From an uncultured Latescibacterota bacterium (GTDB lineage Bacteria > Latescibacterota > UBA2968): a stretch of 64,000 nt of DNA. The position numbers and the translations under genes were made by a program. Location: the NCBI GenBank assembly GCA_951812755.1, contig OX638329.1, positions 293,339-357,338 of the forward strand, read 5' to 3'. Below the pieces are notes generated by a model. It did no database searches and was not told where the DNA came from. It was given only the letters and a program-made list of their open reading frames with translations. Positions 4,403-35,814 of this stretch are shown piece after piece (within the stretch, counting starts at the first letter, position 1; every line of letters begins with the position of its first letter).

Positions 4403-5556
4403 GACTCACTTTTCATCGCCCACTGTTGCTTCTTCTCTCTCATCTCTGCATTCAATTCCACCTCGCGCTGCGGCGTCTGATTCGCGCTATCCTGAACCCA
4501 CTCACCTTCGCGCTTCTCTACAGGCTGTCGCTGTGCCACATTCAGAATCCCAAATGGGCGATGCGGCTCTTTTTGGTACCAGTAAGCCACAGACGCCATC
4601 TCATTCGCCAGATGATTGCCGTGCCCGTGCTCAATCGTCACCTTAATCTCCTTTTCAAACCGCACCGGATTGGTCAAATGAAAAACATAAGACGTCTGAT
4701 ACCCACCCGTATTCCGCTCATAAATCGACGACCCATTCATCAAAAACGCATTATCCTGCATCCCCCACGCCTGATTGAGATAATCCTCGCTACCCGTACC
4801 GTGCAACTCCGGCGGCCACTTGTACCCATCCACCCAGATCATATCATCGCCCTCACCCCACCACGTCCCCTGAAAATTCGTCACCGACAAATTGCACCCA
4901 ATATAATGTCCGACACCCGCCGCCTCCAAAATCACATAATTGCCATCCCACGCCTGCCGCTCAACATTGACAATATTCGCCTCGGGCGTATTGACGCGAA
5001 TTTCGTGCCCCCAACCATCGCACGGATTTTCCCTGTGAAATTGCGCGTGAAAATACGCCGTATCTTCGCCCCAGGGAGCGTCGTACAACTCGTAATCCAC
5101 ATAAAAATATTGCCGATAAGACTCATCGCCCTCATTCGTCACCTCAACGCGCGCAGAGCGATTAAACGGCATAAGCAAATAGCAATTCAGTGCCGCATTG
5201 GGCACAAACTGATTCTCGCGCTGTGCATTGGCAGACGCTGAAAAGGGCAGCGATTGAAAAGACGTTGAAATACCGTGTCCCAAACAAAAGAAATCCCCCA
5301 ACGGCACCTCGACACTCGGATCTTCTTCACCATCCCAAAACATCTTCAAAACCACATTGCGAAAAGCACCATCCCCGCTTTGCGTCATCCAAATATGCGT
5401 AATACAACCCGGTCCCTTGAGATCGGCCAACACGCGCGTCTCTCCCCCCTCAATAACCCATGCATCGCCATTGCGTCCACTGTTATCCCATGACGACGCC
5501 CGCAACGTCCTGGCTCTTTTGGTCTGCGTAAGTGAAGCGAGCATATGAGCGTCCAT
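4399..5556 (-). CDS. DUF2961 family protein (GH172-like beta-jellyroll glycoside hydrolase family)
   Basis: 385 aa with GPGCITHIWMT and WGEGDDMIWVDG motifs characteristic of DUF2961. This is a call from memory and needs HMM confirmation. Confidence 0.5.
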   Translation of the reverse strand: MDAHMLASLTQTKRARTLRASSWDNSGRNGDAWVIEGGETRVLADLKGPGCITHIWMTQSGDGAFRNVVLKMFWDGEEDPSVEVPLGDFFCLGHGISTSFQSLPFSASANAQRENQFVPNAALNCYLLMPFNRSARVEVTNEGDESYRQYFYVDYELYDAPWGEDTAYFHAQFHRENPCDGWGHEIRVNTPEANIVNVERQAWDGNYVILEAAGVGHYIGCNLSVTNFQGTWWGEGDDMIWVDGYKWPPELHGTGSEDYLNQAWGMQDNAFLMNGSSIYERNTGGYQTSYVFHLTNPVRFEKEIKVTIEHGHGNHLANEMASVAYWYQKEPHRPFGILNVAQRQPVEKREGEWVQDSANQTPQREVELNAEMREKKQQWAMKSES

Positions 5557-5904
5557 CTCTCCTCCTTATTAGCAATCAACGCGAATTAATTAAAAGCACC
5601 CTCATCCTGGACGCCTAATTAAGGCATGCAGGCGTGACGAGCACCTATCGTCATTACAAGTACTCCAGTCTTTCCAACGTCCAGAATATTCAGAATTTTA
5701 CCCACCGCGTCAAAGGGTTTTTTTAGAAAAAAAATAATACGCCAACAAATCGCAAAATTTTCTTTTTGCAAACGTTAAATCCGTTTCCTACAGCCCCCGA
5801 TTTTTGCTCTAAATCTCGCAGATACAGACAATTGAACACACCTGCACCCCAACACCAGCAATATTACAATTTGCATATATTTGGTATTGACTTTTTTTTT
5901 AGAC

Positions 5905-5918
5905 CACCATATATTGTG
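5905..5918 (+). promoter_or_regulatory. Candidate NrdR box in the long nrdA leader
   Basis: CACCATATATTGTG is a 14-bp near-palindrome resembling the NrdR operator consensus (CACwAtATaTwGTG). It lies about 350 bp upstream of the nrdA start. I did not find a convincing second box. Confidence 0.35.
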
Positions 5919-6269
5919 CTTGAAGTTGTTAATGAGAATTTGTTCGATGTCCTCGTTGAGCTATTTTGTCGCGGTCAGACCAAACATGTGCTGAACTTGA
6001 TTCAGTAATCTTTAGCAACTGCTTTTGTTTTTCAAGTTGTTATTTTTTTTCGGGAAAACAAATCCATTGTTCGCAGTCTCTCCCCGTCTCTGCGATTGGG
6101 ATTTCTCACCTAAAGTTTTCCCGATTTGTTATCTAAAAACAAAACCCCACACTCATTTTTCAACCCTCCCCGTTGTGGTTTTTATGCAGCGGTTATGGGT
6201 TTATTTTTTCTGCGAGAACACGCAGGAGCAGGCTCCTATTGGTTCTCGGCTGGTATTTGGGAGGCAGGC

Positions 6270-9161
6270 ATGGCCGAAATAGTTGACGCTTTACTGGAAG
6301 CGGTTGGTTTTGCGGTACGCAAACGCGATGGTCGAATCGTCGATTTTGACCGCGTGCGCATTGAACGCGCGATTGAGGCAGCATTTAGAGCCGAGTTGGG
6401 GTTGTCCAACGATCATTCATTGCCGCCCAAAATTGAAACCGATGTGTCGGGACTCACCGACGCTGTTATTGCTGAAATTGAAGATGAATTGCACGAGCCG
6501 GATGACAGCGTGGATGTCGAACGCATCCAGGACAAAGTCGAAATCCAGTTGATGCGTGCAGGACATTTTGCGGTCGCGCGACGCTACATCGTCTATCGAG
6601 AAGACCACAAAAAAGCCCGCGTACTCAGCGGCCAGGAAGAACCCCAGGACCCCAACGCACCCAAACTCCGCGTACAAACAGCCGATGGCAAGCGCGAACC
6701 CCTGGATGCCAACCGCATTCGCACCGAAGTATTTGCCGTCTGCGATGACGACGTAGATCCTCAAGACCTGCTCAATGAGATATATCGCTCCCTCTACGAC
6801 GACATCAAACCCGACGATATTGAACGCGCCATGATCCTGTCAGCGCGCAGCCGCGTGGAAAAAGAACCCGCCTATAGCAAAGTCGCAATGCGCTTGCTCC
6901 TCAACGTAATCTATCGCCACGCCCTGGGATTCAAACCCGCGCTTGAAGACAGGGACACAGCATGTCAGCAGGGATTTGCAAAATTTATTGAAACGGGCAT
7001 TGAAAACGACCGTTTAGATCCCAAATTGCGCACTTATGATCTGGAGCGTCTATCTGAAGCCTTAAAACCCGAGCGCGATGAAGACTTTGAGTACCTGGGC
7101 GTACAAACGATCTTTGATCGCTACTTGCTCCACGTCAACGAGCGCCGCATTGAAACCCCGCAGTTCTTCTGGATGCGCGTGGCCATGGGCCTGTCCTGGG
7201 ACGAATATGACAAAGAGGCACGCGCCATTCAATTTTACGAAGTACTCTCTTCCTTCCGATTTGTCTCTGCCACGCCCACCCTGTTCAATGCCGGCACCCT
7301 GCATCCGCAGTTGTCCTCGTGTTATCTGTCAACCGCGCAAGATGACCTGGAACACATATTCAAAATGGTATCCGACAATGCCAAATTGTCCAAATGGGCT
7401 GGCGGTCTGGGCAATGACTGGACAAATGTGCGCGCGACAAATTCCTATATCCGCGGCACAAATGGCAAAAGCCAGGGCGTCATTCCATTTTTGAAAGTCG
7501 TGAACGATACCGCAGTTGCCGTCAACCAGGGCGGAAAACGCAAAGGCGCGGTATGCTCCTATCTGGAAACCTGGCACCTGGACATCGAAGATTTTATGGA
7601 ACTGCGCAAAAACACGGGCGATGACCGCCGCCGCACGCACGACATGAACACGGCCAACTGGATCCCCGACCTGTTTATGAAGCGCGTCATGGAAAAGGGA
7701 ACCTGGACTCTGTTCAGCCCAGATGAAGTCCCCGACCTGCACGATTTGTACGGCAAAGCCTTTGAAGAAAAATACCTCGCGTATGAACAAAAAGCCGAAG
7801 CCGGTGAACTGCAACAACATCGCCAGATCGATGCCGTGCAACTGTGGCGAAAAATGTTGTCCATGCTCTTTGAAACCGGGCACCCGTGGATCACATTTAA
7901 AGACCCGTCCAATATCCGCTCTCCGCAGGATCACGCGGGCGTTGTCCACAGCTCGAATTTGTGTACTGAAATTTTGTTGAACACGAGCCGCGAAGAAACC
8001 GCAGTATGCAACCTCGGCTCTGTAAATCTCGTGGCGCATATCACACCCACGGGCCTCAACCGCGAATTGCTGGAAGATACAATATCCACAGCGCTTCGGA
8101 TGCTGGACAACGTAATAGACATCAACTTTTATCCCACAGAAGAAGCCGCCACATCCAACAAACGCCACCGTCCAGTGGGCCTGGGCATCATGGGATTTCA
8201 GGACGCGCTATATCTGTTGAATTTGCCCTACGATTCGCAAGGCGCGGTTGACTTTGCCGACGTGAGCATGGAAATGATCTCGTATTACGCGATCCTATCC
8301 TCAACGCACCTGGCCGAAGAACGCGGCACATATCACTCCTACATCGGTTCAAAATGGGACCGCGGCATATTGCCCATCGATACCTTGAAGATATTGGAAC
8401 AGGAACGGGGGTCGTACTGTGAAGTGGATATGTCCGCGCGCCTGGACTGGAATATAGTGCGCGAGGCAGTCGCCGAACACGGCATGCGAAACAGCAATGT
8501 CATGGCCATTGCCCCAACCGCCACCATATCGAATATCTCGGGCGTGACGCAGTCCATCGAGCCGATGTATCGCAACCTGTATGTAAAAGCAAATCTGTCC
8601 GGTGACTTTACAGTATTAAATCCCTACATGGTCGATGCCCTGAAAGCGCGCGACCTGTGGGACGACCAGATGGTAGATGATCTGAAGTATTTCGATGGCT
8701 CAGTCCAGGAAATTGACCGTGTGCCGCAAGACATAAAAGCACTCTACAAAACCGCATTCGAAGTGGCACCCGAGTGGCTCATCGAATGCGCCAGCCGCCG
8801 ACAAAAATGGATCGACATGGGCCAATCGCTGAATCTGTACATCGCAGCCCCCAGCGGCAAGGCACTGGACGACATGTACAAACTCGCCTGGGTGCGCGGG
8901 CTAAAGACCACGTACTACTTGCGCTCGCTGGCAGCGACCCAGATCGAGAAATCCACCATGGACATCAACAAACGCGGCGTCCAGCCCCGGTGGATGCAGT
9001 CCAAATCCGCTTCGAGCGATGTGCAAGTGCAACGCGAAGATGCACCTGTAGAAACTGACGCGTCTCTCAACGGGCAGGTACACCACGAGACCCCTGCCAC
9101 ACCAGGCCCAACGGCTGCATCCTGCGATATTACAGACGGGACATGTGAGGCGTGTCAGTAA
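6270..9161 (+). CDS. nrdA: Ribonucleoside-diphosphate reductase large (alpha) subunit, class I, with N-terminal ATP-cone
   Basis: ATP-cone ([20 protein letters not shown]). Catalytic motifs [18 protein letters not shown] and [11 protein letters not shown]-terminal redox Cys pair ([12 protein letters not shown]). I place the start at ATG 6270 with GGAGG 6 nt upstream; the track ORF from 6126 is an in-frame upstream extension. Confidence 0.9.
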
Positions 9162-9193
9162 AAAAAGAAAGGGACGTGCTATGAACACGTCCC
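9160..9193 (-). terminator. Intrinsic terminator reading on the minus strand (stem gggacgtg / cacgtccc followed by a T-run on the minus strand)
   Basis: An 8-bp perfect stem at 9171-9178 and 9186-9193 with an A-run at 9160-9170 on the plus strand. It sits between the convergent nrdA and the minus-strand small-protein operon. Confidence 0.5.
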
Positions 9194-9365
9194 GATCACA
9201 ATAAATGACCTTGGCTAAAGACATCTATAATTTGCTACATCCCAAAGGTATTTGGCAAGGCTTCATAGAGGAGATGAATATGCGCTGAAAAGGGGAGCAG
9301 TTTATCTATCTCGGACCATTTTGGAGCAGACCACAATAAATTCTGGTGATTTTGAACGACCTCAC

Positions 9366-9659
9366 CTAATTTTTCGTCTCCGAGCGACTAAAACATCTGA
9401 ATAGACCGACTATAGATACATAGATGATGGCAATACCACCTACAAGAATCGCAAATCTATGGTCACTGAATTCTCCAAACGCTATATCCTCTAAAAAAAG
9501 GACACTATATCCGAGAAATAGTCCGGTATCAATCCCAACACCGATTGCAACAACAGAAACAAGTTTTGGAAGATCAGGAACTTCTTTACGCAAGCCACAG
9601 ACTACACAGTAAATCAAAAGAAACACTATACCGAGAATCAGCCCTCTATTTATTGTCAT
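9366..9659 (-). CDS. Small membrane protein of about 97 aa with 3 predicted TM helices. Last gene of the Panacea-associated operon.
   Basis: Hydrophobic segments LILGIVFLLIYCVVCGL, LVSVVAIGVGIDTGLFLGYSVLFL and FAILVGGIAIIYVSIVGLF. The start overlaps the upstream stop by 4 nt. AT-rich (about 42% GC). Confidence 0.5.
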   Translation of the reverse strand: MTINRGLILGIVFLLIYCVVCGLRKEVPDLPKLVSVVAIGVGIDTGLFLGYSVLFLEDIAFGEFSDHRFAILVGGIAIIYVSIVGLFRCFSRSETKN

Positions 9660-9997
9660 TGCTCTCTACTTTCCACCCAGTATCCGCACGAACCCCCGAT
9701 AATACTTCCAATGACAATCCCTAACATTCCAAAAGAGCTACCAGCCATCAATCCGCCTATAAGTCCGGCGACCGCGAGTGCATGCGAAGCCATAGAAGAG
9801 GTCTTGGATTGTTGAATCTGGTTATCACGGTTGACAGATGCACTTTCTTGATTGAGCTCTTGGGATTCTTTCGGTAATTCCTTAATAGTGGCAAAGACCG
9901 CATCTTCAATAGTGGCAAAGACCGCATCTTCAGTACGAGTTTGAATTGTCTCTCTTGATTGTTCTGGTCGAATATCTAATTTTGAGAGTTCTCCCAT
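9656..9997 (-). CDS. Small protein with a C-terminal glycine-zipper transmembrane domain. Candidate membrane-targeting toxin (PanT-like).
   Basis: The C-terminus reads ALAVAGLIGGLMAGSSFGMLGIVIGSIIGGSCGY, i.e. repeated GxxxG. The N-terminus is polar and carries a duplicated EDAVFATI. The ATG sits directly after the upstream stop (TGATG junction). Confidence 0.5.
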   Translation of the reverse strand: MGELSKLDIRPEQSRETIQTRTEDAVFATIEDAVFATIKELPKESQELNQESASVNRDNQIQQSKTSSMASHALAVAGLIGGLMAGSSFGMLGIVIGSIIGGSCGYWVESREQ

Positions 9998-10543
9998 TTA
10001 TTGACCTCCTATTCTATTCAGGTAGTACTCTCTTATGACCTTATTCGGTATGTGTGCATTTCTAAATCCATTCCTTCTTTTCCATGTTTTATCCCAGGGT
10101 GTGTCTTCTCTATGTGTTATATCAGAAAGCTGTAACCCTGTATATTCTCCGTAAACTTCCCAAATCTTATTTAATAAAGCACTGGGGAATTCATCGTTTG
10201 GATCTATCTTCGGAGTTATAGATTTTGTGTCGAGTTTTCCCCTATCATCATCGTATGAAAACTCAATATCTTTTGCAAACTCTGTTATTGGATCCCCACC
10301 AAAGCGTTTGAAATGATGGTAAAGTGATGGAAATACCGGACCATATTGCCAAGCCTCGGCGAACTCGTCGTCAACTAACGGAAGACCGTCAGACGAGTTA
10401 TCTCTTGCGGTGAAAGCGAGATGATACCCGTGAGCGATATACACAAGTTTTTGTATCATCAATGGTGTTATTTCAACACCATCCTTCTTACCAAGGTCTA
10501 AAAAGTAATTTGCCACAGCAAATGCAGAGTAACCCATATACAT
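9998..10543 (-). CDS. Panacea domain (DUF4065, SocA/PanA-like) protein. Putative antitoxin.
   Basis: N-terminal motif AVANYFLDLGKKDGVEITPLMIQKLVYIAHGYHLA...PLVDDEFAEAWQYGPVFPSLYHHFKRFG matches the DUF4065 signature (VANYFL... KLQKLLYYAqGwhLa .. F.AW.yGPV.p.lY). The likely start is the third codon, ATG at 10537, with AAGGAG 6 nt upstream. Confidence 0.6.
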   Translation of the reverse strand: MYMGYSAFAVANYFLDLGKKDGVEITPLMIQKLVYIAHGYHLAFTARDNSSDGLPLVDDEFAEAWQYGPVFPSLYHHFKRFGGDPITEFAKDIEFSYDDDRGKLDTKSITPKIDPNDEFPSALLNKIWEVYGEYTGLQLSDITHREDTPWDKTWKRRNGFRNAHIPNKVIREYYLNRIGGQ

Positions 10544-10675
10544 CTCCTTGATTACTCTCTCATCAGAACGGGAGAGGGGGATTATTAGATTATATTATTT
10601 ATGTTATTATAGGGAATTGCGATATAATAACATAGAAAGGAAGTGGGATCATGTCAAGGAGTTTAACCAACGTTT

Positions 10676-10725
10676 CTAACGCTTCTAACGCGCCCAGATA
10701 TGCTAACGCTACGAACATACTAACC
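10676..10725. promoter_or_regulatory. Iteron-like direct repeats: CTAACGC repeated 3 times plus one CTAACC. Candidate operator upstream of the Panacea operon.
   Basis: ...ttctaacgcttctaacgcgcccagatatgctaacgctacgaacatactaacc... at 130-190 bp upstream of the minus-strand panA-like start. Confidence 0.35.
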
Positions 10726-10837
10726 TACAAATCTACCGACGCCGTAACACCGGCATCATTGGCTATAGCCTTCTGATTTTTATTCAAAATTAAGTAATGA
10801 AACCACACTATTATGGAATAATTATTCGATTTATTAT

Positions 10838-10871
10838 TCTGCTACTTTAAGATATAACTTAAAGTAGCAGA
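10838..10871 (+). terminator. Perfect 14-bp stem hairpin (tctgctactttaag-atataa-cttaaagtagcaga) in an AT-rich block (about 25% GC), followed by a T-rich tract
   Basis: Read directly from the sequence. There is no plus-strand gene immediately upstream, so the hairpin could instead be a recombination or att-like site at the junction of horizontally acquired segments. Confidence 0.35.
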
Positions 10872-10958
10872 GACAAATTTGGAATTTTTATTTTGCGTAT
10901 GTAGATGGCGGCTTTAAGCAAAGAGGCCGGATGGCTCACAAGGGTAGTCCGGCTTTTC

Positions 10959-11209
10959 CTATGAATCTAACAGGCGCTCAAATTCATCGAGACTGGACAC
11001 CTGAACCGCCGCGCGGAGCAACTGCTTGAGGCGTTGCAAATCTTCGATAGTCGCAATGCGAGTAGATAGGGGGTCTGCTTCGTGCAGATCAAATCTCCAA
11101 CACTTCGAGGATATCTTCAATGGCGCATTGTCTGCCCCTGCTCAATACCTTCTTCAATGCCTTCTCGCTTAAATTGCTGAATAAGGGATGATTCGCGGAT
11201 GATATCCAT
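10959..11209 (-). pseudogene. Frameshifted remnant of a DUF4351 / Rpn-family (PD-(D/E)XK transposase-like) protein C-terminal region
   Basis: Minus-strand reading from ATG (complement 11207-11209, AAGGAGGG SD): MDIIRESSLIQQFKREGIEEGIEQGQTMRH* then, after a frameshift, ..IEDILEVLEI* then, after another frameshift, ..DPLSTRIATIEDLQRLKQLLRAAVQVSSLDEFERLLDS*. The EEGxEQG repeat and the C-terminal tail are typical of DUF4351 proteins. Confidence 0.5.
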
Positions 11210-11257
11210 GATGCCCTCCTTCAAAATAATATCAGAAATAGTTTCGGATATGTCCTC

Positions 11258-11372
11258 AATATGCTGTATTGCACCCTTTTTTTTAACTTGAATTTGTGGA
11301 TCGTCTGTTTGGCGTAAAACAATCTCTGTATATTTTGAACGATAAATGGGCGGTCATGTGAAAGATATGTAC
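11258..11372 (+). repeat. Dispersed intergenic element of about 115-135 bp, copy 1 (CAATATGCTGTATTGC ... TTGTGGATCGTCTGTT ... GTATATTTTGA.CGAT.AAT ... GTGAAAGATATGTAC)
   Basis: Collinear blocks of 16, 16, 11 and 15 bp are shared with 35815-35944, in the same order and orientation. Confidence 0.6.
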
Positions 11373-11467
11373 CACTTGTCCATTTGTCCGCCGCGGTGGT
11401 TCTTGCGTAACATCAGTTATATTCAGGGTAGGTCAGAGTATTTTTTTGATTATAAGTCCTTTTTAGG

Positions 11468-11497
11468 GTTGACAGTACGCGAGTACTTTTACTATAA
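11468..11497 (+). promoter_or_regulatory. Near-consensus sigma70 promoter: TTGACA, an 18-bp spacer, then TATAAT. The spacer contains the perfect 12-bp palindrome GTACGCGAGTAC.
   Basis: ttgacaGTACGCGAGTACttttacTATAAT lies about 240 bp upstream of the ATPase gene at 11735. It faces the plus-strand gene string 11735 to 16249 (ATPase, peptide ORF, ATPase, DUF4276, nrdB). Confidence 0.55.
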
Positions 11498-11646
11498 TAA
11501 GCACGTCTTTACCACAACATTTTGTGCTCTTTTTTCGTTAATTACAAAATATTGTGGCGTAAATAAAAGCACAGCAATAATTTAAAGCGATTCTCCAATC
11601 GCTTTAAGACCTCCCCTCGTCTTCCCCTGACGGCTCCTTACGGTCC

Positions 11647-11724
11647 ATCGCACTGGCGACCTTATTTTTTTTAGCTATATTCGACACAGTCATCTTTTCG
11701 GCAAAATGACCAGATTGCTCATCC
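11647..11724 (+). repeat. Decayed remnant of the 3-prime end of a second ATPase cassette copy, ending in the 27-bp direct repeat (DR1 at 11698-11724)
   Basis: 11647-11667 equals 12428-12448 (inside the gene). 11681-11697 equals 12588-12604 (inside the gene). 11698-11724 equals 12772-12798 (just past the stop). The order and orientation match the intact gene, with about 330 bp of intervening sequence deleted. Confidence 0.6.
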
Positions 11725-11734
11725 GAATTTCACA

Positions 11735-12763
11735 ATGCCTGCTCTTGACAACATTACCATCAAGGGCTTCAAGAGCATCGGTTCTATTGAGAACTTGAAG
11801 CTCGGCCCAATTAACGTCTTGATCGGGCCGAATGGATCGGGCAAATCAAACTTCATTGAGGTCTTCTCCTTCCTGCGCGAAATCACCTCGGATAGGCTGA
11901 AGGATTATGTGAACCGCGCTGGTGGGGCCGACAAAATTCTGCATTTCGGTTCCAGAACAACTGAAGAACTGATCATTGACATCTCATTTGACGACATAGC
12001 AAATCGGTACACGATCAGGTTGCACGCAACGGATACCGACATGCTATATCTGTCTTCAGAGTCTGACCGCTTCTGGAACGCCCACTCGGATTCCGATATC
12101 CGCAACCATCCCGATAGGTGGCGCGTTTATCACTTCCATGACACAAGTTCCACATCGCCAATGCGGAAAACCGCCGATGTAAACGACAACCGTTATTTGC
12201 GATCCGATGCTTCCAACCTATCGGCGTTTCTGTACTACTTGCATGAGACGCATGAAGCGTCATACAACCTGATTCGCCGCACAGTGCAGCAGGTCGCGCC
12301 ATTTTTTGATGATTTTCTCCTCCAGCCGCTGGCACTAAACAACGACAAAATCCACCTCGAATGGCGTCACAAGAAATCCGAAGCGTACTTTGATGCTTCT
12401 TCGCTCTCTGACGGCTCCCTGCGATTTATCGCACTGGCGACCTTATTTCTTCAGCCAGAGCCGCTTCGTCCATCCATTATTCTATTGGACGAGCCAGAAC
12501 TTGGACTACACCCCTATGCGACCGCCATGTTGGCTTCGCTTGTAAAACAGGCATCCGTCAAGACTCAGGTCATTCTTTCGACACAGTCATCTTTGCTAAT
12601 CGATCACTTCCAACCAGAAGATGTGCTCGTGGCTGAACGGGTAGATGGACAAACGCAATTCACAAGGCTCAACGCAATTCGCCTGAAAACATGGTTAGAG
12701 GACTACAGCCTCGGCCAACTCTGGGAAAAAAATGAGATAGGTGGGCGTCCCGTAGTGGAGTAG
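11735..12763 (+). CDS. AAA family ATPase (AAA_21/ABC-type, OLD/AbiL-ATPase-like). Orphan, with no nuclease partner.
   Basis: Walker [17 protein letters not shown]-loop and signature region. Walker B IILLDEPELGLHP. D-loop and H-loop TQVILSTQS. 342 aa. Confidence 0.8.
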   Translation: MPALDNITIKGFKSIGSIENLKLGPINVLIGPNGSGKSNFIEVFSFLREITSDRLKDYVNRAGGADKILHFGSRTTEELIIDISFDDIANRYTIRLHATDTDMLYLSSESDRFWNAHSDSDIRNHPDRWRVYHFHDTSSTSPMRKTADVNDNRYLRSDASNLSAFLYYLHETHEASYNLIRRTVQQVAPFFDDFLLQPLALNNDKIHLEWRHKKSEAYFDASSLSDGSLRFIALATLFLQPEPLRPSIILLDEPELGLHPYATAMLASLVKQASVKTQVILSTQSSLLIDHFQPEDVLVAERVDGQTQFTRLNAIRLKTWLEDYSLGQLWEKNEIGGRPVVE

Positions 12764-12771
12764 ATAGAGAA

Positions 12772-12798
12772 TCGGCAAAATGACCAGATTGCTCATCC
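12772..12798 (+). repeat. 27-bp exact direct repeat (DR2) TCGGCAAAATGACCAGATTGCTCATCC, 9 bp past the ATPase stop. Identical to DR1 at 11698-11724.
   Basis: Exact 27/27 match read from the sequence. The two copies bracket the gene with 10-bp and 9-bp margins. Confidence 0.85.
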
Positions 12799-12972
12799 TT
12801 GCGCTCGCTAAACTGATTAACTGACATTACACACAGTAGTTAAAAAACGAAAAACCAAACTATTACAGGGGATTGAGGTTCGACTCTCCTTGTTTTCTCC
12901 GTTCTTAGTTCCGTTGCTATCTCCTTAAAATGGATCAGTATTAAATCTACGAGTTTCATTAGGGAGGTTAAT

Positions 12973-13074
12973 ATGAAAAATTTGGCTGTTTTTATTAGTG
13001 CGATTTCTGAAATAGCATGTACTATAATATGTACTATCGGAGTTAACATCCTGGGGAGTCCCCTGTCTCAATAA
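12973..13074 (+). CDS. Putative 33-aa hydrophobic Cys-containing peptide (MKNLAVFISAISEIACTIICTIGVNILGSPLSQ)
   Basis: Strong SD AGGGAGG 5 nt upstream of the ATG. The hydrophobic core is long enough for a single TM helix. It lies between the two ATPase genes. The ORF track lists no plus-strand ORF here because it is under 60 aa. Confidence 0.35.
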   Translation: MKNLAVFISAISEIACTIICTIGVNILGSPLSQ

Positions 13075-13134
13075 GCTATTTAACAGGCAATGCCATTCTG
13101 CTTAAAGATGCGTAATGTCAGTGACTAAAAAGAG

Positions 13135-14406
13135 ATGAACCTAACAACTTCACAATACACAGCACCGGCGCGGATCGAGTATTTGAAGGTGCAGAACTTT
13201 CGTGCGTTGCGGGAAGTTGAGTTCAAGGAATTGACACCGCTGACTGTGTTGCTCGGTCCCAATGGCAGCGGGAAATCAACAGTATTTGACGTATTTGCGT
13301 TTCTATCGGAATGCTTTGAGTCGGGTTTGCGTCGCGCCTGGGATCAACGTGGCCGTGCCAAAGAACTGCGGACGCGCGGCAACATCGATCCCGTTGTCAT
13401 CGAACTCAAGTACCGCGAACAGCCGGGCACGCGTCTGATCACTTATCACCTGGCTATTGACGAAGACCGCAACCGCCCCGTTGTCAAGGAGGAATGGTTA
13501 CAATGGCGGCGCGGCCAACACGGCAGACCATTCCGATTTCTCGATTATCGCGAGGGACAGGGCAGAGCGGTCAGCGGTGAGCAACCCGACGAATTGGACA
13601 CGCTTTACTCGGGACCGATCCAATTAGACCCGCGCAACGAGGTACCGCTCCAATCGCCCGACCTGCTGGCAGTCAATGCCCTGGGGCAATTTGCCGATCA
13701 CCCGCGCGTAGCAGCACTGCGCGACTTCATCACCGGATGGCATGTGTCATACCTCTCGGCAGACAGCGCACGAGGCCAGCCCGAAGCAGGACCTCAAGAG
13801 CGACTGTCTAAGAGCGGCGACAACCTTGCCAATGTCATACAGCACCTTGCAGAACAATACCCCGAGCGACTTAACCAGATCTTTGAGGTGCTACGCCAGC
13901 GGGTGCCGCGCATTGAGCGCGTGCTATCAGAAGTCATGCCCGATGGTCGCTTGTTGTTGCAAATTAAGGACGCACCGTTCAGCAACCCGGTGCTGGCGCG
14001 ATTCGCTTCTGATGGCACATTGAAAATACTGGCTTACCTGGTGCTATTATACGACCCCGAACCGCCGCCCTTCATCGGCATCGAAGAGCCGGAAAACTTC
14101 TTGCACCCTCGATTGCTTCCGGAACTTGCCGAAGAATGCCGTGCGGCCTGCGAGCGCACGCAGTTATTGGCGACCACGCATTCGCCATTTTTCCTGAACG
14201 CACTGCGTCCCAAAGAGGTCCGCGTCCTCTGGCGCGACGCGGAGGGGTACACACAAACACGCCGAGTCGCAGATATACCCGGCATACCGGAATTTGTCGA
14301 AGAGGGTGCATATCTTGGCCATCTATGGATGGAAGGATATTTCAATCTGGGAGACCCGCTGGACAGACATGGTGAACCGACTCCTCCTCTGGAGGGACGC
14401 GGGTGA
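13135..14406 (+). CDS. AAA family ATPase (AAA_21 / OLD-family ABC-like ATPase). ATPase component of a two-gene split-OLD / AbiL / PARIS-like module.
   Basis: Walker [17 protein letters not shown] and Walker [14 protein letters not shown]. 423 aa with a long inserted region between the motifs, as in OLD/AriA/GajA-type ATPases. A 4-bp ATGA overlap joins it to the next gene. Confidence 0.8.
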
Positions 14407-15023
14407 TGACGGCACAACATCTGGAATTACTCGTTGAAGAACCCTCAATGGAGGCCTTCTTGCGAGAGCTATTGCCGCGTATGCTGCCTGCGGAATGCAC
14501 ATTCAAAATTCATCCGTTTCAGGGGAAGCCAGACCTGTTGGACAAGTTGCAAAATCGTCTGCGAGCCTATGCAAAATGGTTACCCGACAACTATCGCATC
14601 TTCGTAATCGTTGACCGCGATAACGACAACTGCGAACAATTAAAACAAAAACTTGAAAACATTGCTTCTCGGACTCAACTGCTCACCCGCTCACAGGCCC
14701 GTAGTCGTCTCTGGCAACTGGTCAACCGTATCGCCATTGAAGAACTGGAGGCATGGTACTTTGGTGACTGGCAGGCGGTGTGTAATGCCTATCCGAGGGT
14801 TTCAAAAAAAATTCCAAATCAGGCACGCTATCGCCACCCCGATGCAATCCGCGGAGGCACATGGGAAGCTTTCGAACGCATCCTGAAGCGACATGGCTAC
14901 TTTAAAACTGGACTACGCAAAGTGGAGGCTGCCAGAGACGTTGGCATTCATATTGATTCTAATCGTAGCCGTTCGCACAGTTTTGTGAAATTCCGCGAAG
15001 CCATCATTGAGGCAACTGCTTGA
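14403..15023 (+). CDS. DUF4276 family protein (Toprim-like predicted nuclease partner of the ATPase)
   Basis: 206 aa. The N-terminal [19 protein letters not shown] (acidic EE after a beta-strand) and the later [11 protein letters not shown] (DxD) fit a Toprim-like E...DxD arrangement. The size and the ATPase-then-DUF4276 gene order are typical of this family. The assignment is from memory. Confidence 0.55.
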
Positions 15024-15061
15024 ACCATTATTGTATCTCATTTTTTTAAAGGAGTTGTAAT

Positions 15062-16249
15062 ATGTCTAAGCTCATATTTGAAGACGAAGACGTTGAAAGT
15101 CAAGCAAATATGGACTACAAGGATGGTGGTCACGCGGAGCAAAACGGCATTCATGCGTCCGTTGAAGCGGATAATACTGACGTACCCTCCGCGCTGTGTT
15201 GTGGTGCCACTGGCGAGGCGTATGACCTGACCAGGCGCATCAACCCGGAAGACAAGCGATTGCTCAACTGCCGGCAGGTGGATGTAAACCAGTTGATGCC
15301 CCTCAAATACGAATGGGCATGGGAACACTATCTCAACGGATGTGCCAATCACTGGATGCCGACAGAAGTACCGATGCAGCGCGACATAGAACTCTGGCGT
15401 TCAAATGCCCTGAACGACGCCGAGCGAAAAGTCATCTTGAGAAACCTCGGATTCTTCAGCACGGGCGAAAGCCTCGTCGGTAACAACATCGTACTCGCCA
15501 TCTTCAAACACATCACAAACTCCGAAGCGCGACAATACCTCTTGCGCCAGGCATTTGAAGAAGCCATACACACCCACACATTCCACTACATCGTCGAATC
15601 CCTGGGCCTGAACGCACGCGAAGTATTCAACATGTATCACGAAGTCTCGTCCATCGAAGGCAAAGACAAATTCGTGATGGAACTAACCGAAGACGTGTTA
15701 GATCCCAACTTCTCAACACAAAGCATTGAAGGCATGCAGAAATTCGTGAAAAATCTCGTCGGATTTTACGTCATCATGGAAGGCATATTCTTTTACAGCG
15801 GCTTTGTCATGATCCTCTCCTTCCATCGGCAAAACCGCATGACCGGCATTGGCGAACAATTCCAGTACATCTTGCGCGACGAGACCATTCATCTGAATTT
15901 TGGCATTGACTTAATCAACACCATCAAATCGGAAAACCCAGAAATCTGGACAACGGAACTGCAACGCGACATCTACGACCTCATCCACGAAGCCGTGGAA
16001 TACGAAGTAATCTATGCACGGGATTGTGTGCCCGACGGCGTACTGGGCCTCAATGAAGACTTATTCCGCGAATACGTGCAATTCATCGCCGACCGTCGGT
16101 TGGAACGAATCGGCCTGCAAAGCGTATATGGATCAAAGAATCCTTTCCCGTGGATGGGAGAAACCATTGACATCGCAAAAGAAAAGAACTTCTTTGAAAC
16201 GCGCGTAACAGATTATCAAAGCGCGGGATCCTTACAGTGGGATGATTAA
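15062..16249 (+). CDS. nrdB: Ribonucleoside-diphosphate reductase small (beta) subunit, class I
   Basis: [16 protein letters not shown] and the di-iron ligand helices ([30 protein letters not shown]). AAAGGAG SD. Only 38 bp separate it from the DUF4276 stop. Confidence 0.9.
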
Positions 16250-16310
16250 CCCTAAAACTTTGACAGGAATTTATTCAGGCTGACGGGGGAAGGGAAATCA
16301 GAGCCTGGTA

Positions 16311-16348
16311 CAGGGTGGGAGACAAACGTCTTCCACCCTGTTTTTTTT
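16311..16348 (+). terminator. Strong rho-independent terminator for nrdB (long GC hairpin cagggtgggagac-aaac-gtcttccaccctg followed by T8)
   Basis: Read from the sequence. The T-run abuts the stop of the convergent minus-strand gene. Confidence 0.7.
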
Positions 16349-17633
16349 ACTGATCAGACATGGGAAAAGCCATAACCTCGCCTATAGAAGATGCCCCTGT
16401 AAGAAGCATAACCAGACGATCCACCCCAAGCGCAATACCGCCAGAAGGCGGCATCCCGTATTCGAGAGCCGAAAGAAAACGCTCGTCAATTGGATAAGCC
16501 GCATTCCCCTCCCTCACGCGCTGGGTGGCCTCCTCTTCCAAACGCTGGCGTTGCTCATCCGGATCGTTCAACTCTGTAAACGCATTGCACAACTCCATCC
16601 CCGCAATATAAACCTCAAACCGCTCTGCCAGATCTGGCGCGCTGGACTTGCGTTTGGCAAGCGCTGCCATCGGCGCGGGATAATCGTACAAAATCGCTGG
16701 CTTTTGCACACCCAGATGTGGCTCAACCCGATCGAGAAACACCTTGAAAAACGCGACGTCCGGCGGATCATCCTCATCAACTGTCACATGCCCCGCCTGC
16801 CTGATAAACGCGGCAGTATCCGAATACGGATCAGCGCGAATACCCGCATAGCGCAACATCGCCTCCCGCACAGAAATACGCTCCCACGGCGGCGTCAGAT
16901 CAACCGCGTACTGACCCGTCCGCACAACAGGCTCTCCATATAAATCTGTTGCAAGTCCGGCAATCAAATACTCAGTATCCACCATAATATCAGTATAATC
17001 CGCGTACGCCCGATACCACTCCAGCATCGTAAACTCAGGCGTATGCATCCTGCCAACAGGCTCGTGCCGAAACACCTTGCAAATCTGGTATATCCGTTCA
17101 AAACCAGCCGCGAGCAGGCGCTTCATCGCATACTCAGGCGAAGTATGCAGATAAAACTGCCGCATCTCATACGCCGTCTGAAACGCCTCGAGATGCGGCT
17201 CCATACCCGGTTGCGACACCATCAGAGGCGTCTCAACCTCCACAAAACCCTTCTCATCAAAAAATCGACGAATCCCCGCAATAATTTTGGCGCGCTTGCG
17301 CAAATTCGTCTGCACGACCTGGGATAAAGACACATCCGCACCACGGGACGGCACCAGCACCCGCAGCCCTGTAGCAGAAAAAACATCGCCTTCAAGACAA
17401 CCCTCAACCTCCACAATATCTCCAGTCTTTGCCTCGGTAGCAGTATTAAAACACAGGCACACCCTTCCCGTCTCATCGGAAAGCGCATCTCGCTCCACAA
17501 GACGCCCGGCCACAACCGCAAACTCACCCGCCTGCAGATCACAGACCCGATGCGTACGCTTACATCGTGCGGGATATTGGGGAGATGGATAATCGCGCAT
17601 GAATATTGTCCTTAGAAGTCGATTGACGACCAA
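16347..17633 (-). CDS. epmA: EF-P lysine aminoacylase EpmA/GenX-like class II LysRS paralog with an N-terminal OB-fold-like extension
   Basis: TSPEYAMKRLL, TPEFTMLEWY, ERFEVYIAGMELCNAFTELNDPDEQRQR and GIALGVDRLVMLL align with EpmA/PoxA. An extra N-terminal segment of about 100 aa (..FAVVAGRLVERD...IVEVEGCL) is not present in E. coli EpmA. Confidence 0.65.
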   Translation of the reverse strand: MVVNRLLRTIFMRDYPSPQYPARCKRTHRVCDLQAGEFAVVAGRLVERDALSDETGRVCLCFNTATEAKTGDIVEVEGCLEGDVFSATGLRVLVPSRGADVSLSQVVQTNLRKRAKIIAGIRRFFDEKGFVEVETPLMVSQPGMEPHLEAFQTAYEMRQFYLHTSPEYAMKRLLAAGFERIYQICKVFRHEPVGRMHTPEFTMLEWYRAYADYTDIMVDTEYLIAGLATDLYGEPVVRTGQYAVDLTPPWERISVREAMLRYAGIRADPYSDTAAFIRQAGHVTVDEDDPPDVAFFKVFLDRVEPHLGVQKPAILYDYPAPMAALAKRKSSAPDLAERFEVYIAGMELCNAFTELNDPDEQRQRLEEEATQRVREGNAAYPIDERFLSALEYGMPPSGGIALGVDRLVMLLTGASSIGEVMAFPMSDQ

Positions 17634-35732: not shown

Positions 35733-35814
35733 ATATCAGGCCAACAATGCAATTATCACAAAATTGAGCGATAAAAAGAGGCTCGACAGAAACCCCGGCA
35801 TCTCATTATGCTTT

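What the first reader, a model, noticed from the sequence alone, without database searches (positions are those of the whole stretch)
9162..15061. Compositionally foreign 5.9-kb toxin/defence-type island inserted between nrdA and nrdB, with nrdB 38 bp behind a predicted nuclease gene
Class I RNR subunit genes are normally adjacent. Here nrdA (ending at 9161) and nrdB (starting at 15062) are split by an insert carrying four things: a Panacea-domain antitoxin-like gene plus two small membrane-protein genes (minus strand, about 42% GC against about 58% for nrdA); a DUF4351-type pseudogene; an orphan OLD-like ATPase bracketed by 27-bp direct repeats; a strongly ribosome-bound 33-codon peptide ORF; and an ATPase plus DUF4276 pair. 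The DUF4276 stop is 38 bp from the nrdB ATG, with only an SD in between, so nrdB expression is most simply explained by read-through from the island (candidate promoter at 11468-11497). An essential nucleotide-metabolism gene would then be transcriptionally hostage to a mobile defence/TA cassette. The arrangement also links dNTP supply to anti-phage loci, a theme known from viperin- and dGTPase-type defences. The combination and the location inside an nrd operon are, to my knowledge, not described.
Basis: partly seen in the sequence, partly recalled or inferred. Interest (0 to 1): 0.8.

Follow-up and report, generated by a model that had tools for sequence, protein, structure and literature searches.

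The report
Defence-gene hotspot splitting the nrdAB operon
In one group of uncultured Latescibacterota bacteria, the gap between the two ribonucleotide-reductase genes has become a changeable parking place for toxin-antitoxin and candidate anti-phage genes, and in this genome nrdB seems to be kept running by a second nrd-type promoter placed upstream of the defence genes.

Summary
The insert is real: nrdA ends at 9161, nrdB starts at 15062, and one relative (L003) has the genes 28 bp apart. About 60 more distant genomes have gaps of 750 bp or less.

It is not one foreign island. It is a mosaic in a clade-specific hotspot. Eight of nine close relatives carry different cargo between the same two boundaries.

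The window holds:
- a low-GC Panacea antitoxin with two small membrane-protein genes;
- a truncated Rpn-like putative transposase;
- a HEC-01 ATPase whose TOPRIM partner was deleted (the 27-bp repeats are the start of that lost gene);
- a 301-bp MITE-like insertion containing the "33-codon ORF";
- an intact, purifying-selected HEC-01 pair (ABC ATPase plus DUF4276) abutting nrdB.

It is followed by two NrdR-box-like palindromes 14 bp apart. Such pairs occurred nowhere else in 1.3 Mb except upstream of nrdA genes.

So nrdB is probably co-transcribed with HEC-01 from an nrd-type, NrdR-controlled promoter. That reverses the "hostage" idea: the defence genes sit inside nrd regulation. Transcription is inferred, not shown. 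Interest is moderate.

The parts
5887..5919 (+). nrdA promoter region (TTGACT-17-TATATT) with an NrdR-box-like palindrome at 5904-5919 (CCACCATATATTGTGC) overlapping the -10
   Evidence: It is the only hit with 3 or fewer mismatches to ACACWATATATWGTGT in the 64 kb. The same box is conserved upstream of nrdA in L001-L008 and in the outgroups L011-L015, L019 and L027.
6270..9161 (+). nrdA (class I RNR large subunit, 963 aa; the mechanical ORF starts at 6126)
   Evidence: ORF. It is 92-98% identical to nrdA of relatives. The gene call in L082 has ATP-cone, Ribonuc_red_lgN and Ribonuc_red_lgC domains and 963 aa.
9171..9193 (-). Terminator-like hairpin with a T-run on the minus strand, ending the Panacea operon; there is no T-run on the plus strand
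9366..9659 (-). 97-aa protein with three hydrophobic segments (candidate membrane toxin or accessory protein)
   Evidence: Hydropathy. It is 98% identical in L004 and L081 but only 36% in L001. It overlaps the upstream gene by 4 bp.
9656..9997 (-). 113-aa protein with a charged N-terminus and a C-terminal glycine-zipper hydrophobic segment (candidate PanT-type membrane toxin); it contains an in-frame 24-bp tandem duplication at 9879-9926
   Evidence: The layout matches the membrane PanT toxins described in PMC8832971.
9998..10543 (-). Panacea-domain (SocA-like) antitoxin, 181 aa
   Evidence: PF13274 at 2e-17. NCBIfam SocA_antitoxin at 4e-29, below its cut-off. A promoter-like site lies at 10657-10629 on the minus strand.
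10959..11248 (-). Pseudogene remnant: the C-terminal third, with frame breaks, of a multi-copy Rpn-like putative transposase/nuclease
   Evidence: tblastn to the intact 349-aa ORF at L001:8358-9407 gives 84% and 69% identity. A 734-bp deletion relative to L001 is visible. The family has more than 1600 homologues, several per chromosome.
11250..11620 (+). Conserved promoter module: -35/-10 at 11469-11498; NrdR-like box A at 11512-11527 (CCACAACATTTTGTGC); 14-bp spacer; box B at 11542-11557 (TTACAAAATATTGTGG); hairpin at 11582-11607
   Evidence: Perfect consensus promoter. Alignment with L001, L002, L004 and L007 (A1) and with L081 shows the invariant blocks are the -10, box A, box B and the hairpin arm. 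It is the only box pair in the window, and 3 of 1000 shuffles gave any pair. All 14 non-island pairs in 1.34 Mb of loci lie upstream of nrdA.
11627..11724 (+). Decayed copy of the ATPase1 3' end (11627-11697) plus the first 27 bp of its lost DUF4276 partner (direct repeat copy 1, 11698-11724)
   Evidence: Repeat families D2, D4 and D6. The same remnant occurs in L002, L007 and L081 without an intact ATPase1.
11735..12763 (+). ATPase1: intact HEC-01A-type ABC ATPase (342 aa), orphaned
   Evidence: PADLOC HEC-01A at 4e-134 and AAA_21 at 6e-31. Identity is 95% to L005 and 79% to L009, where a DUF4276 gene follows. dN/dS is 0.08-0.13.
12772..12798 (+). Direct repeat copy 2: the start codon and first codons (MTRLLI...) of the deleted DUF4276 partner of ATPase1
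   Evidence: Compare L005:7569-8264 (MTRLLIHVEG...; PF14103 at 2e-52, HEC-01B at 5e-74) and L009:6454-7191.
12821..13121 (.). MITE-like 301-bp insertion: terminal inverted repeats CTGACATTACAC / GCGTAATGTCAG, 7-bp duplication TGATTAA/TGACTAA; it contains the 33-codon ORF at 12973-13074
   Evidence: Inverted repeat I14. The TIR occurs only at these two places in the window. The piece is absent from L002, L006 and L007, and L007 has a single TGATTAA at the site. No second copy was found.
13135..14406 (+). ATPase2: HEC-01A ABC ATPase, 423 aa
   Evidence: PADLOC HEC-01A at 1e-163 and AAA_21 at 2e-30. Walker A (GPNGSGKS) and Walker B (IGIEEPE) are visible in the translation. dN/dS is about 0.10 (0.34 for the nearly identical L002 copy, dS 0.045), and dS tracks nrdB.
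14403..15023 (+). DUF4276 TOPRIM-like protein (HEC-01B), overlapping the ATPase2 stop (probable start ATG at 14406)
   Evidence: PF14103 at 4e-31 and HEC-01B at 4e-87. The family-invariant E12, D71, E114 and E116 are present, and the protein has a DRD motif (A2). dN/dS is 0.05-0.13.
15048..16249 (+). Conserved SD (AAAGGAGTTGT) and nrdB (395 aa)
   Evidence: The right boundary of all cargo variants falls at 15045-15048. PF00268 at 6e-91.
16310..16341 (+). Strong intrinsic terminator after nrdB (14-bp stem plus T-run)
   Evidence: It is the only strong plus-strand terminator between 11500 and 16350.

Best explanation
The nrdA|nrdB junction of this Latescibacterota clade is a recombination hotspot where toxin-antitoxin and defence cassettes accumulate, get swapped and decay.

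The window's 5.9 kb is a mosaic with five pieces:
1. A low-GC PanA/PanT-like module on the opposite strand.
2. A truncated Rpn-like gene.
3. A conserved promoter module.
4. A HEC-01 variant-1 ATPase whose TOPRIM partner was deleted, followed by a small MITE-like insertion.
5. An intact HEC-01 variant-2 pair (ABC ATPase plus DUF4276 TOPRIM-like protein).

Because the convergent Panacea module cuts nrdB off from the nrdA promoter, nrdB is expressed as the last gene of a transcript of about 4.8 kb. This transcript would start at the promoter at 11469-11498 and end at the terminator at 16310-16341. The promoter carries a tandem pair of NrdR-type operator boxes. HEC-01 and nrdB would therefore both be repressed or derepressed by the nucleotide-sensing repressor NrdR, as nrdA is.

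Shown: the anatomy, the variability among relatives, the empty site, purifying selection on the HEC-01 genes, and the conservation and statistical specificity of the box pair.

Inferred: that the promoter fires, that NrdR binds it, that transcription reads through to nrdB, and that HEC-01 and the Panacea module are active.

The confidence value is for the whole statement. The hotspot/mosaic part alone is about 0.9; the NrdR-promoter co-transcription part is about 0.55-0.6.
For: Hotspot:
- Eight of nine close relatives have 2.3-9.5 kb of different cargo between identical boundaries. The left boundary is just after the nrdA stop and the right is 14-17 bp before the nrdB ATG. L003 has 28 bp.
- Gaps are 750 bp or less in all other loci except L065 and L070.
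- Cargo elsewhere includes HEC-01 variant 1, an MBL plus E2/E1/JAB plus TIR-like cassette, HepT/MNT, HNH and GIY-YIG.
- Different segments have different closest relatives: nrdA 3' end and Panacea with L004, ATPase2 with L002, nrdB with L004.
- L009 carries a duplicated nrdB 5' fragment between the two HEC-01 variants.

Promoter and operator:
- A perfect consensus promoter, conserved in L001, L002, L004, L007 and L081.
- The boxes match the clade's nrdA box.
- The 14-bp spacer length is kept in L081 although its sequence differs. Spacers of 14-17 bp are functional for NrdR (PMC12051234).
- The pair test was highly specific: 3 of 1000 shuffles gave any pair, and 14 of 14 other pairs lie upstream of nrdA.
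- In L001 and L004 the module lies 350 bp upstream of nrdB with nothing in between.

Co-transcription:
- The sequence just upstream of the nrdB SD takes five unrelated forms across relatives, and the gene upstream is always co-directional.
- In L008 most of DUF4276 is deleted and nrdB follows directly.
- The only promoter-like site inside DUF4276 (14611-14640) has its -35 in the VDRD codons, and its -10 is not conserved in L009.
- There is no strong plus-strand terminator before 16310.

Selection: dN/dS is 0.05-0.13 for most comparisons of ATPase2, DUF4276 and ATPase1 (ATPase2 versus its near-identical L002 copy is 0.34), and dS is similar to that of nrdB.
Against: - There is no transcript data, so promoter use, read-through and NrdR binding are all inferred.
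- Each box alone has four mismatches to the generic NrdR consensus, and single hits of that quality occur at background frequency (9 observed against 6.8 in shuffles).
- Box A is weaker in L002 (6 mismatches) and L004 (5 mismatches).
- No nrdR gene lies in the window or the fetched loci, and its presence in these genomes was not checked.
- L005, L006, L008 and L009 lack the promoter module, so it is not required for every arrangement. In those genomes all cargo is co-directional with nrdA.
- HEC-01 gave no phage protection when it was tested in E. coli (bioRxiv 10.1101/2024.01.29.577857).
Confidence: 0.6

Rival explanations
1. A single, recently acquired mobile defence/TA island inserted into the nrd operon, and its own promoter now controls the essential nrdB gene ('hostage').
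For: The site is empty in L003 and in the outgroups. GC is low (37-45%) for 9200-11620. The cargo is of defence and TA type.
Against: - The content is a mosaic with different nearest relatives per segment.
- HEC-01 variant 2 has host-like GC, and its dS matches that of nrdB out to the most distant clade members.
- The window's insert has no integrase, no att-like repeats and no conserved ends.
- The promoter carries nrd-type operator boxes and directly precedes nrdB in L001 and L004.
Confidence: 0.1
2. nrdB has its own promoter inside the DUF4276 gene or the 38-bp spacer, and is transcriptionally independent of the upstream cassette.
For: A weak promoter-like match (9 of 12) lies at 14611-14640. 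The last 60 nt or so of DUF4276 are unusually conserved, even in L009. Internal promoters are common and hard to predict.
Against: - The -35 of that site is the catalytic VDRD codons, and its -10 is not conserved in L009.
- L008 has lost DUF4276 codons 50-206 yet keeps nrdB.
- L005, L001/L004 and L003 have unrelated sequence upstream of the same SD.
- No NrdR-like box lies in 14403-15061.
Confidence: 0.15
3. nrdB is still transcribed mainly from the nrdA promoter, by read-through across the antisense Panacea module and the rest of the insert. The 11469 promoter would be incidental.
For: The hairpin after nrdA (9171-9193) has no T-run on the plus strand. In L005, L006, L008 and L009, with no promoter module and all cargo co-directional, read-through from nrdA is the only obvious source of nrdB transcripts.
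Against: Six kilobases of read-through against a convergent operon that has its own promoter-like site (10657-10629) would be inefficient. The promoter module is present in the genomes that carry the minus-strand Panacea module (window, L001, L004, L081) and in L002 and L007, with invariant -10 and box B.
Confidence: 0.12
4. The promoter module is real, but the two palindromes are not NrdR operators. They could be another factor's sites or conserved by descent only, so HEC-01 and nrdB are not nucleotide-regulated.
For: Each box has four mismatches to the generic consensus. The relatives that carry the module are closely related (about 80% identity), so conservation is weak evidence. The spacer, at 14 bp, is at the short edge of the functional range. 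Box A degrades in L002 and L004.
Against: The pair criterion found only nrdA-upstream sites elsewhere in 1.34 Mb, and 0.3% of shuffles gave a pair. Box A matches the clade's own nrdA box at 15 of 18 positions including flanks. L081 keeps the boxes and the spacer length while the spacer sequence and the distance from the -10 to box A have changed.
Confidence: 0.2

Closest known systems
HEC-01 (Hma-embedded candidate 01; ABC ATPase plus DUF4276 TOPRIM-like protein), a PADLOC candidate defence system
   Same: Both window proteins hit the HEC-01A and HEC-01B models strongly (1e-163 and 4e-87). The genes overlap. The ATPase has Walker A/B and signature motifs, and DUF4276 keeps the invariant acidic residues.
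   Different: Two divergent variants are stacked here, and one is reduced to an orphan ATPase. The pair is embedded between an nrd-type promoter and nrdB rather than in an Hma system. Defence activity is unproven in general: there was no protection in the original E. coli assay.
PARIS (AriA ABC ATPase plus AriB DUF4435 TOPRIM) and the wider OLD-like family
   Same: The two-gene architecture is the same: an AAA_15/21 ABC ATPase plus a TOPRIM-superfamily nuclease. DUF4276 is treated as one of the partner domains of this ATPase family in PMC11464382 and as a TOPRIM member in PMC12065111.
   Different: The partner is DUF4276, not DUF4435 or Toprim_Old. AriA models score far below HEC-01A (1e-29/1e-30 against 1e-134/1e-163). 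ATPase1 has no fused TOPRIM, so it is not a class 1 OLD protein. The trigger and target are unknown.
PanA/PanT (Panacea-domain antitoxin) toxin-antitoxin systems
   Same: A Panacea domain protein lies in an operon with small proteins that have a charged N-terminus and a C-terminal membrane segment, like the membrane-depolarising PanT toxins (PMC8832971). The antitoxin is 97% conserved between the window and L001 while its partners are only 36-53% identical, which fits partner swapping.
   Different: Two downstream small proteins are present instead of one toxin. Neither has a family assignment, and toxicity and neutralisation are untested.
Defence hotspots flanked by core genes (as described for Pseudomonas and E. 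coli pan-genomes; my own knowledge, see also PMC12629846)
   Same: The boundaries in conserved genes are fixed. The cargo varies among close relatives, mixing intact and decayed systems, TA modules and transposon debris. The mosaic pattern is consistent with homologous recombination through the flanks.
   Different: The hotspot lies inside an operon for an essential two-subunit enzyme rather than between independent core genes. Every cargo arrangement must therefore preserve nrdB transcription. Several arrangements carry a dedicated NrdR-box promoter module.
Phage T4 mobE, a free-standing homing endonuclease gene between nrdA and nrdB (PMC2790892)
   Same: A selfish gene occupies the same intergenic position in an RNR gene pair. 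L005 has a small GIY-YIG ORF directly after nrdA.
   Different: The setting is a bacterial chromosome, not a phage. The cargo is defence and TA genes. No homing endonuclease is present in the window.
NrdR operators (tandem 16-bp NrdR boxes upstream of RNR operons)
   Same: There are two palindromic boxes with a 14-bp spacer at a promoter that precedes an nrd gene, and their sequences are close to the clade's nrdA box.
   Different: The operator sits 3.5 kb upstream of nrdB with two ATPase genes, a DUF4276 gene and a MITE-like element in between. The boxes lie downstream of the -10 rather than overlapping it. Binding is untested.

Membership tests
HEC-01 candidate defence system | ABC ATPase matching HEC-01A models | tested here: met
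   ATPase2 scores 1e-163 and ATPase1 scores 4e-134. Both match AAA_21.
HEC-01 candidate defence system | Adjacent DUF4276/TOPRIM-like partner (HEC-01B) | tested here: met
   14403-15023 matches HEC-01B at 4e-87 and PF14103 at 4e-31, and overlaps the ATPase2 stop. This is NOT met for ATPase1, where only the first 27 bp of the partner remain.
HEC-01 candidate defence system | TOPRIM acidic residues present (a conserved Glu and a DxD motif are the expected catalytic residues; their role was not tested here) | tested here: met
   E12, D71, E114 and E116 are invariant in a 12-sequence alignment. The window protein has VDRD (A2).
HEC-01 candidate defence system | Protection against phage | not testable with these tools
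   The only published test of HEC-01 found no protection in E. coli.
PanA/PanT toxin-antitoxin | Panacea (PF13274) domain protein | tested here: met
   E 2e-17, above the gathering score.
PanA/PanT toxin-antitoxin | Co-directional adjacent toxin gene, and toxicity neutralised by PanA | tested here: inconclusive
   Two abutting or overlapping small membrane-protein genes follow. Toxicity cannot be tested here.
NrdR operator | Two 16-bp palindromic boxes resembling acaCwAtATaTwGtgt | tested here: met
   Boxes at 11512-27 and 11542-57 each match 12 of 16 positions of the generic consensus. They differ at 2 and 3 positions from the clade's nrdA-type box.
NrdR operator | Spacer of 14-17 bp (or 24-27 bp) between the boxes | tested here: met
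   The spacer is 14 bp, and this length is kept in L001, L007 and L081. The functional range comes from PMC12051234.
NrdR operator | Located at a promoter of an RNR gene | tested here: inconclusive
   The module is directly upstream of nrdB in L001 and L004 (350 bp). In the window, 3.5 kb with three other genes lies in between.
NrdR operator | nrdR present in the genome, and NrdR binding | not tested
Conserved boxes upstream of nrdA across the phylum suggest that NrdR is present.
Integrative mobile genomic island | Integrase/recombinase and flanking att repeats | tested here: not met
   No such gene was found among the window's island ORFs. No repeats lie at the boundaries. The junction sequences differ between genomes.
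Integrative mobile genomic island | Presence/absence polymorphism and deviant composition | tested here: met
   The empty site in L003 and the variable cargo. Low GC holds only for 9200-11620 and 12821-13121.
OLD-family nuclease (class 1) | ABC ATPase fused to a C-terminal TOPRIM domain | tested here: not met
   ATPase1 is 342 aa with ATPase domains only. Old models score 2e-17 against 4e-134 for HEC-01A.
DUF4351 / Rpn-family (YhgA-like) putative transposase | Match to PF14261 (DUF4351), or to TIGR01784/PDDEXK models | tested here: inconclusive
   No Pfam hit even at E=10 on the intact homologues. TIGR01784 scores 0.0027, below its cut-off, on the L009 homologue. One 76%-identical homologue is named Rpn family by NCBI.
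MITE | Terminal inverted repeats, target-site duplication, and an empty site in relatives | tested here: met
   12 of 13 TIR positions match and the 7-bp TSD matches at 6 of 7. L007 has the uninterrupted site.
MITE | Multiple copies in the genome | tested here: not met
   There is no second copy in the window or in 80 loci. The whole genome is not available.

The most novel reading that the evidence does not exclude
The nrdA|nrdB junction is not just a tolerated landing site but a selected one. By sitting between an NrdR-controlled promoter and the essential nrdB, HEC-01 (ABC ATPase plus TOPRIM) would be expressed in step with the cell's dATP/ATP status. For example, it would be derepressed when a replicating phage drains dNTPs. 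It would also be shielded from imprecise deletion, because losing the promoter or nrdB is lethal. That would be a direct regulatory coupling of an anti-phage system to the nucleotide-sensing repressor of RNR genes.
Probability: 0.15. Interest if true: 0.7.

Novelty: new variant of a known kind. Interest (0 to 1): 0.45.

Why it matters
Defence islands are usually described between independent core genes. Here the variable region lies inside the operon of an essential two-subunit enzyme.

That placement imposes a constraint visible in the comparison: every arrangement keeps the nrdB Shine-Dalgarno sequence and a co-directional upstream transcription source. Several arrangements carry a second promoter with NrdR-type operators.

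This gives two things:
- A natural series of ten alleles showing how an essential operon survives repeated invasion.
- A concrete, testable case where a candidate defence system (HEC-01, so far without a demonstrated phenotype) may be under a nucleotide-pool-sensing repressor.

If HEC-01 is only active, or only expressed, under NrdR derepression, that might explain why it scored negative in standard E. coli assays.

The components themselves (HEC-01, PanA/PanT, Rpn-like gene, MITE-like element) are known kinds, so the finding is of moderate rather than high interest.

Tried and rejected
- Rfam scan of 5000-17000 at E<=1 found no RNA family, so no riboswitch or known leader.
- Pfam DUF4351 gave no hit for the pseudogene fragments or for the intact homologues, even at E=10. 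NCBIfam gave only a sub-threshold Rpn hit.
This is uninformative for the genome as a whole.
- Single NrdR-box matches with 4 or fewer mismatches occur at background frequency. Only the paired-box test was discriminating.
- The hairpin at 11582-11607 is conserved in six genomes, but with no compensatory changes, so there is no evidence for an RNA structure.
- Searching for more copies of the MITE-like element found none.
- Viral-contig scans for Panacea relatives and for the box-pair pattern found nothing, so there is no evidence of phage origin.
- The metagenome scan for the box pair returned a single contig (L081), a 97% relative, not a donor context.
- The internal promoter candidate at 14611-14640 was rejected as probably coding-driven.
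- An assembly artefact was rejected: the same kind of arrangement occurs in several independent assemblies, including complete long chromosomes (L001, L004, L007, L008, L009) and contigs from other samples (L081-L083).
- An nrd-specific association of HEC-01 was rejected: 71-73% identical pairs sit next to unrelated genes in other genomes.

Full report
**1. What is in the sequence**

- nrdA ends at 9161. Its likely start is 6270, giving 963 aa as in relatives.
- nrdB (PF00268, 6e-91) starts at 15062.
- On the minus strand lie a Panacea/SocA-like antitoxin (9998-10543, PF13274 2e-17) and two abutting small proteins. The first has 113 aa, a charged N-terminus and a C-terminal glycine-zipper segment. 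The second has 97 aa and three hydrophobic segments.
- Two short minus-strand ORFs follow at 10959-11224.
- On the plus strand lie an ABC ATPase (11735-12763), a 33-codon ORF (12973-13074), a second ABC ATPase (13135-14406) and an overlapping DUF4276 gene (14403-15023, PF14103 4e-31).
- PADLOC models identify both ATPases as HEC-01A (4e-134 and 1e-163) and the DUF4276 protein as HEC-01B (4e-87).
- The 27-bp repeats are exact.
- The promoter match at 11469-11498 is a perfect TTGACA-18-TATAAT.
- GC is low only for 9200-11620 (37-47%) and 12821-13121 (37%). ATPase1 (50%), ATPase2 (57%) and DUF4276 (49%) bracket the host values (window 52%, nrdA 53%, nrdB 49%).

**2. Source and relatives**

A scan of one genome per species with nrdB places the window in Latescibacterota. 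Nine loci (L001-L009) share 83-96% nrdB identity.

tblastn and blastn against them give the central result. The flanks are collinear, but the content between nrdA and nrdB differs in almost every genome.

| Locus | Content between nrdA and nrdB |
|---|---|
| L003 | 28 bp only (TAAAAAGAGACCTAAAAGGAGTTGTCGTATG) |
| L006, L007 | Essentially ATPase2 plus DUF4276 |
| L005 | A GIY-YIG ORF, then ATPase1 plus an intact 231-aa DUF4276 partner |
| L001 | The Panacea module, an intact 349-aa Rpn-like gene and the promoter module, but no HEC-01 |
| L004 | MBL, an E2/E1/JAB fusion, a TM protein and a TIR-like effector, then the Panacea module |
| L008, L009 | HepT/MNT, TIR-like, HNH and NTase genes, then HEC-01 |

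In every case the left boundary is just after the nrdA stop and the right boundary is 14-17 bp before the nrdB ATG, so only the SD is preserved.

In the more distant loci that hold both genes, the gap is 750 bp or less. The exceptions are L065 (1972 bp) and L070 (1329 bp). So this is an insertion site, and specifically a clade-restricted variable hotspot.

**3. The pieces have separate histories**

- *ATPase1 and the 27-bp repeats.* In L005 and L009, ATPase1 is followed by a DUF4276 gene beginning MTRLLIHVEG. The repeat TCGGCAAAATGACCAGATTGCTCATCC contains that start codon and its first codons. Repeat copy 2 (12772-12798) is therefore the stump of ATPase1's deleted TOPRIM partner. Upstream of copy 1 lie degenerate copies of the ATPase1 3' end (repeat families D2 and D6). 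L002, L007 and the 97%-identical metagenome contig L081 have this remnant with a single repeat copy and no intact ATPase1. The 1074-bp unit is therefore an indel mediated by the repeat. The direction of the event (duplication or import versus deletion) is unresolved.
- *The 33-codon ORF.* It lies in a 301-bp piece (12821-13121) with 12-of-13 terminal inverted repeats and a 7-bp duplication (TGATTAA/TGACTAA). L007 has the uninterrupted TGATTAA, and L002 and L006 also lack the piece. This looks like a MITE insertion, although no second copy was found. The ORF is not conserved and is probably fortuitous.
- *The minus-strand fragments at 10959-11248.* They are the C-terminus of the L001 349-aa protein, with 734 bp deleted. 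That protein belongs to a multi-copy family with more than 1600 hits, several per chromosome. NCBI labels one member an Rpn-family recombination-promoting nuclease/putative transposase. Pfam DUF4351 is not detected.
- *Selection and divergence.* ATPase2 and DUF4276 have dN/dS of 0.05-0.13 in all comparisons except ATPase2 versus its near-identical L002 copy (0.34). Their dS values are 0.2-0.3 to L006/L007 and 1.1-1.7 to L008/L009. These track nrdB (0.33-0.38 and 1.14). The pair is therefore a long-term resident of the locus, or always moves together with nrdB, rather than a recent arrival.
- *Panacea module.* The Panacea gene is 97% identical between the window and L001, while its two partners are only 53% and 36% identical. 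This is the partner-swapping behaviour described for PanA.
- *Recombination footprints.* Nearest relatives differ by segment (L004 for the nrdA 3' end, Panacea and nrdB; L002 for ATPase2). L009 carries a duplicated nrdB 5' fragment fused to a second NTase copy between the two HEC-01 variants. Both point to recombination through the conserved flanks, plus occasional illegitimate joins. No integrase or att site is present in the window's insert.

**4. How nrdB is expressed**

The segment 11250-11620 is conserved in L001, L002, L004 and L007 (alignment A1) and in L081. The invariant blocks are the extended -10, two palindromes and one arm of a hairpin.

The palindromes are CCACAACATTTTGTGC (11512-27) and TTACAAAATATTGTGG (11542-57). 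They resemble the NrdR box. They especially resemble the box at the clade's nrdA promoter, CCACCATATATTGTGC (5904-19). That box is the only hit with 3 or fewer mismatches in the window, and it is conserved upstream of nrdA across the phylum and its neighbours.

Single matches with four mismatches are not significant. I therefore tested pairs with the 14-17 bp spacing that NrdR requires (PMC12051234; PMC2892513).
- The window has exactly one such pair, this one.
- Only 3 of 1000 block-shuffled windows had any pair.
- In 1.34 Mb of fetched loci there are 16 pairs. Fourteen lie 150-650 bp upstream of nrdA in other taxa. The other two are this module in L001 and L007.
- In L081 the boxes and the 14-bp spacer length are kept, although the spacer sequence and the distance from the -10 to box A have changed.

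In L001 and L004 the module lies 350 bp upstream of nrdB with nothing in between. I conclude, by inference, that it is an nrd-type, NrdR-regulated promoter. In the window, L002 and L007, the HEC-01 genes lie between it and nrdB.

The genomes that lack the module (L005, L006, L008, L009) have all their cargo co-directional with nrdA, so read-through from the nrdA promoter can serve there.

Several observations argue against a private nrdB promoter.
- The sequence upstream of the conserved SD takes five unrelated forms.
- L008 has lost DUF4276 codons 50-206.
- The only promoter-like site in DUF4276 has its -35 in the VDRD codons, and its -10 is not conserved in L009.
- No strong plus-strand terminator occurs before 16310.

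**5. Comparison with known systems**

HEC-01 is a published PADLOC candidate: an ABC ATPase plus a TOPRIM-like DUF4276 protein. It is related in architecture to PARIS, Gabija and OLD, and it gave no protection in its only test.

PanA/PanT systems with small membrane toxins are established. Defence hotspots flanked by core genes are well known. Selfish genes between nrdA and nrdB are known in T4-like phages (mobE).

Close HEC-01 homologues (71-73% identical) elsewhere sit in unrelated neighbourhoods, again directly upstream of a co-directional gene. The association with nrd is therefore specific to this clade.

Two things appear new. The hotspot lies inside an essential RNR operon. And a duplicate NrdR-type promoter module maintains nrdB expression, which places a candidate defence system under presumptive nucleotide-pool control.

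**6. Verdict**

I rate this a new variant of a known kind. Interest is 0.45. All claims about transcription, NrdR binding and defence activity are inferences that need RNA mapping, binding assays and phage challenge.

Noticed in passing
L009:7229-8023: An nrdB 5' fragment (about the first 150 codons) is fused in frame to a second copy of an NTase gene. It sits between HEC-01 variant 1 and variant 2. This is a footprint of an illegitimate or unequal recombination that stacked two alternative alleles of the locus.
   Followed up: partly
L005:6004-6402: A small GIY-YIG domain ORF (PF01541, 5.5e-6) begins just before the nrdA stop codon. It is reminiscent of the homing-endonuclease genes found next to nrd genes in T4-like phages, and could be a source of double-strand breaks at this site.
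   Followed up: no
L004:2254-7463: The same nrdA|nrdB gap holds an MBL-fold protein, a 763-aa E2/E1(ThiF)/JAB fusion, a 250-aa membrane protein and a 335-aa protein with a TIR-like effector domain. This is a ubiquitin-like conjugation type of defence cassette.
   Followed up: partly
L065:8029-10001 and L070:8672-10001: Two distant lineages (a Verrucomicrobia bacterium and a Methylacidiphilales MAG) also have 2.0 and 1.3 kb between nrdA and nrdB. Each carries an MNT-type nucleotidyltransferase-like ORF plus another small ORF.
   Followed up: no
window 9879-9926: A perfect-to-92% 24-bp tandem duplication inside the 113-aa membrane-protein gene duplicates EDAVFATI in frame. The L004 orthologue (105 aa) has one copy.
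   Followed up: no
L004:9021-9305 (equivalent to window ~10640-10700): A long hexanucleotide array (translating as ALEALE... or SNASNA...) lies upstream of the Panacea gene in L004. The window has only two units.
   Followed up: no
window 35814-35944: A short stretch is 78-83% similar to the left part of the promoter module (11256-11372), the part that flanks the 5' end of the Rpn-like gene. It lies next to small minus-strand ORFs at 35003-35732, possibly another decayed copy of the same multi-copy element.
   Followed up: no
window 11582-11607: An 11-bp-stem hairpin (TTAAAGCGATT/AATCGCTTTAA) lies just downstream of the NrdR-like boxes. It is conserved in six genomes but without compensatory changes. 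There is no T-run on the plus strand, and its function is unknown.
   Followed up: yes
window 5920-6269: nrdA has a leader of about 350 nt between the promoter/NrdR box and the likely start codon at 6270. The leader is conserved at about 90% among relatives and has no Rfam match.
   Followed up: partly
window 14960-15023: The last 60 nt or so of the DUF4276 gene are nearly invariant, even in L009, which is otherwise 73% identical at the nucleotide level. This could be a coding constraint ([11 protein letters not shown]) or a signal relevant to nrdB translation or stability.
   Followed up: no
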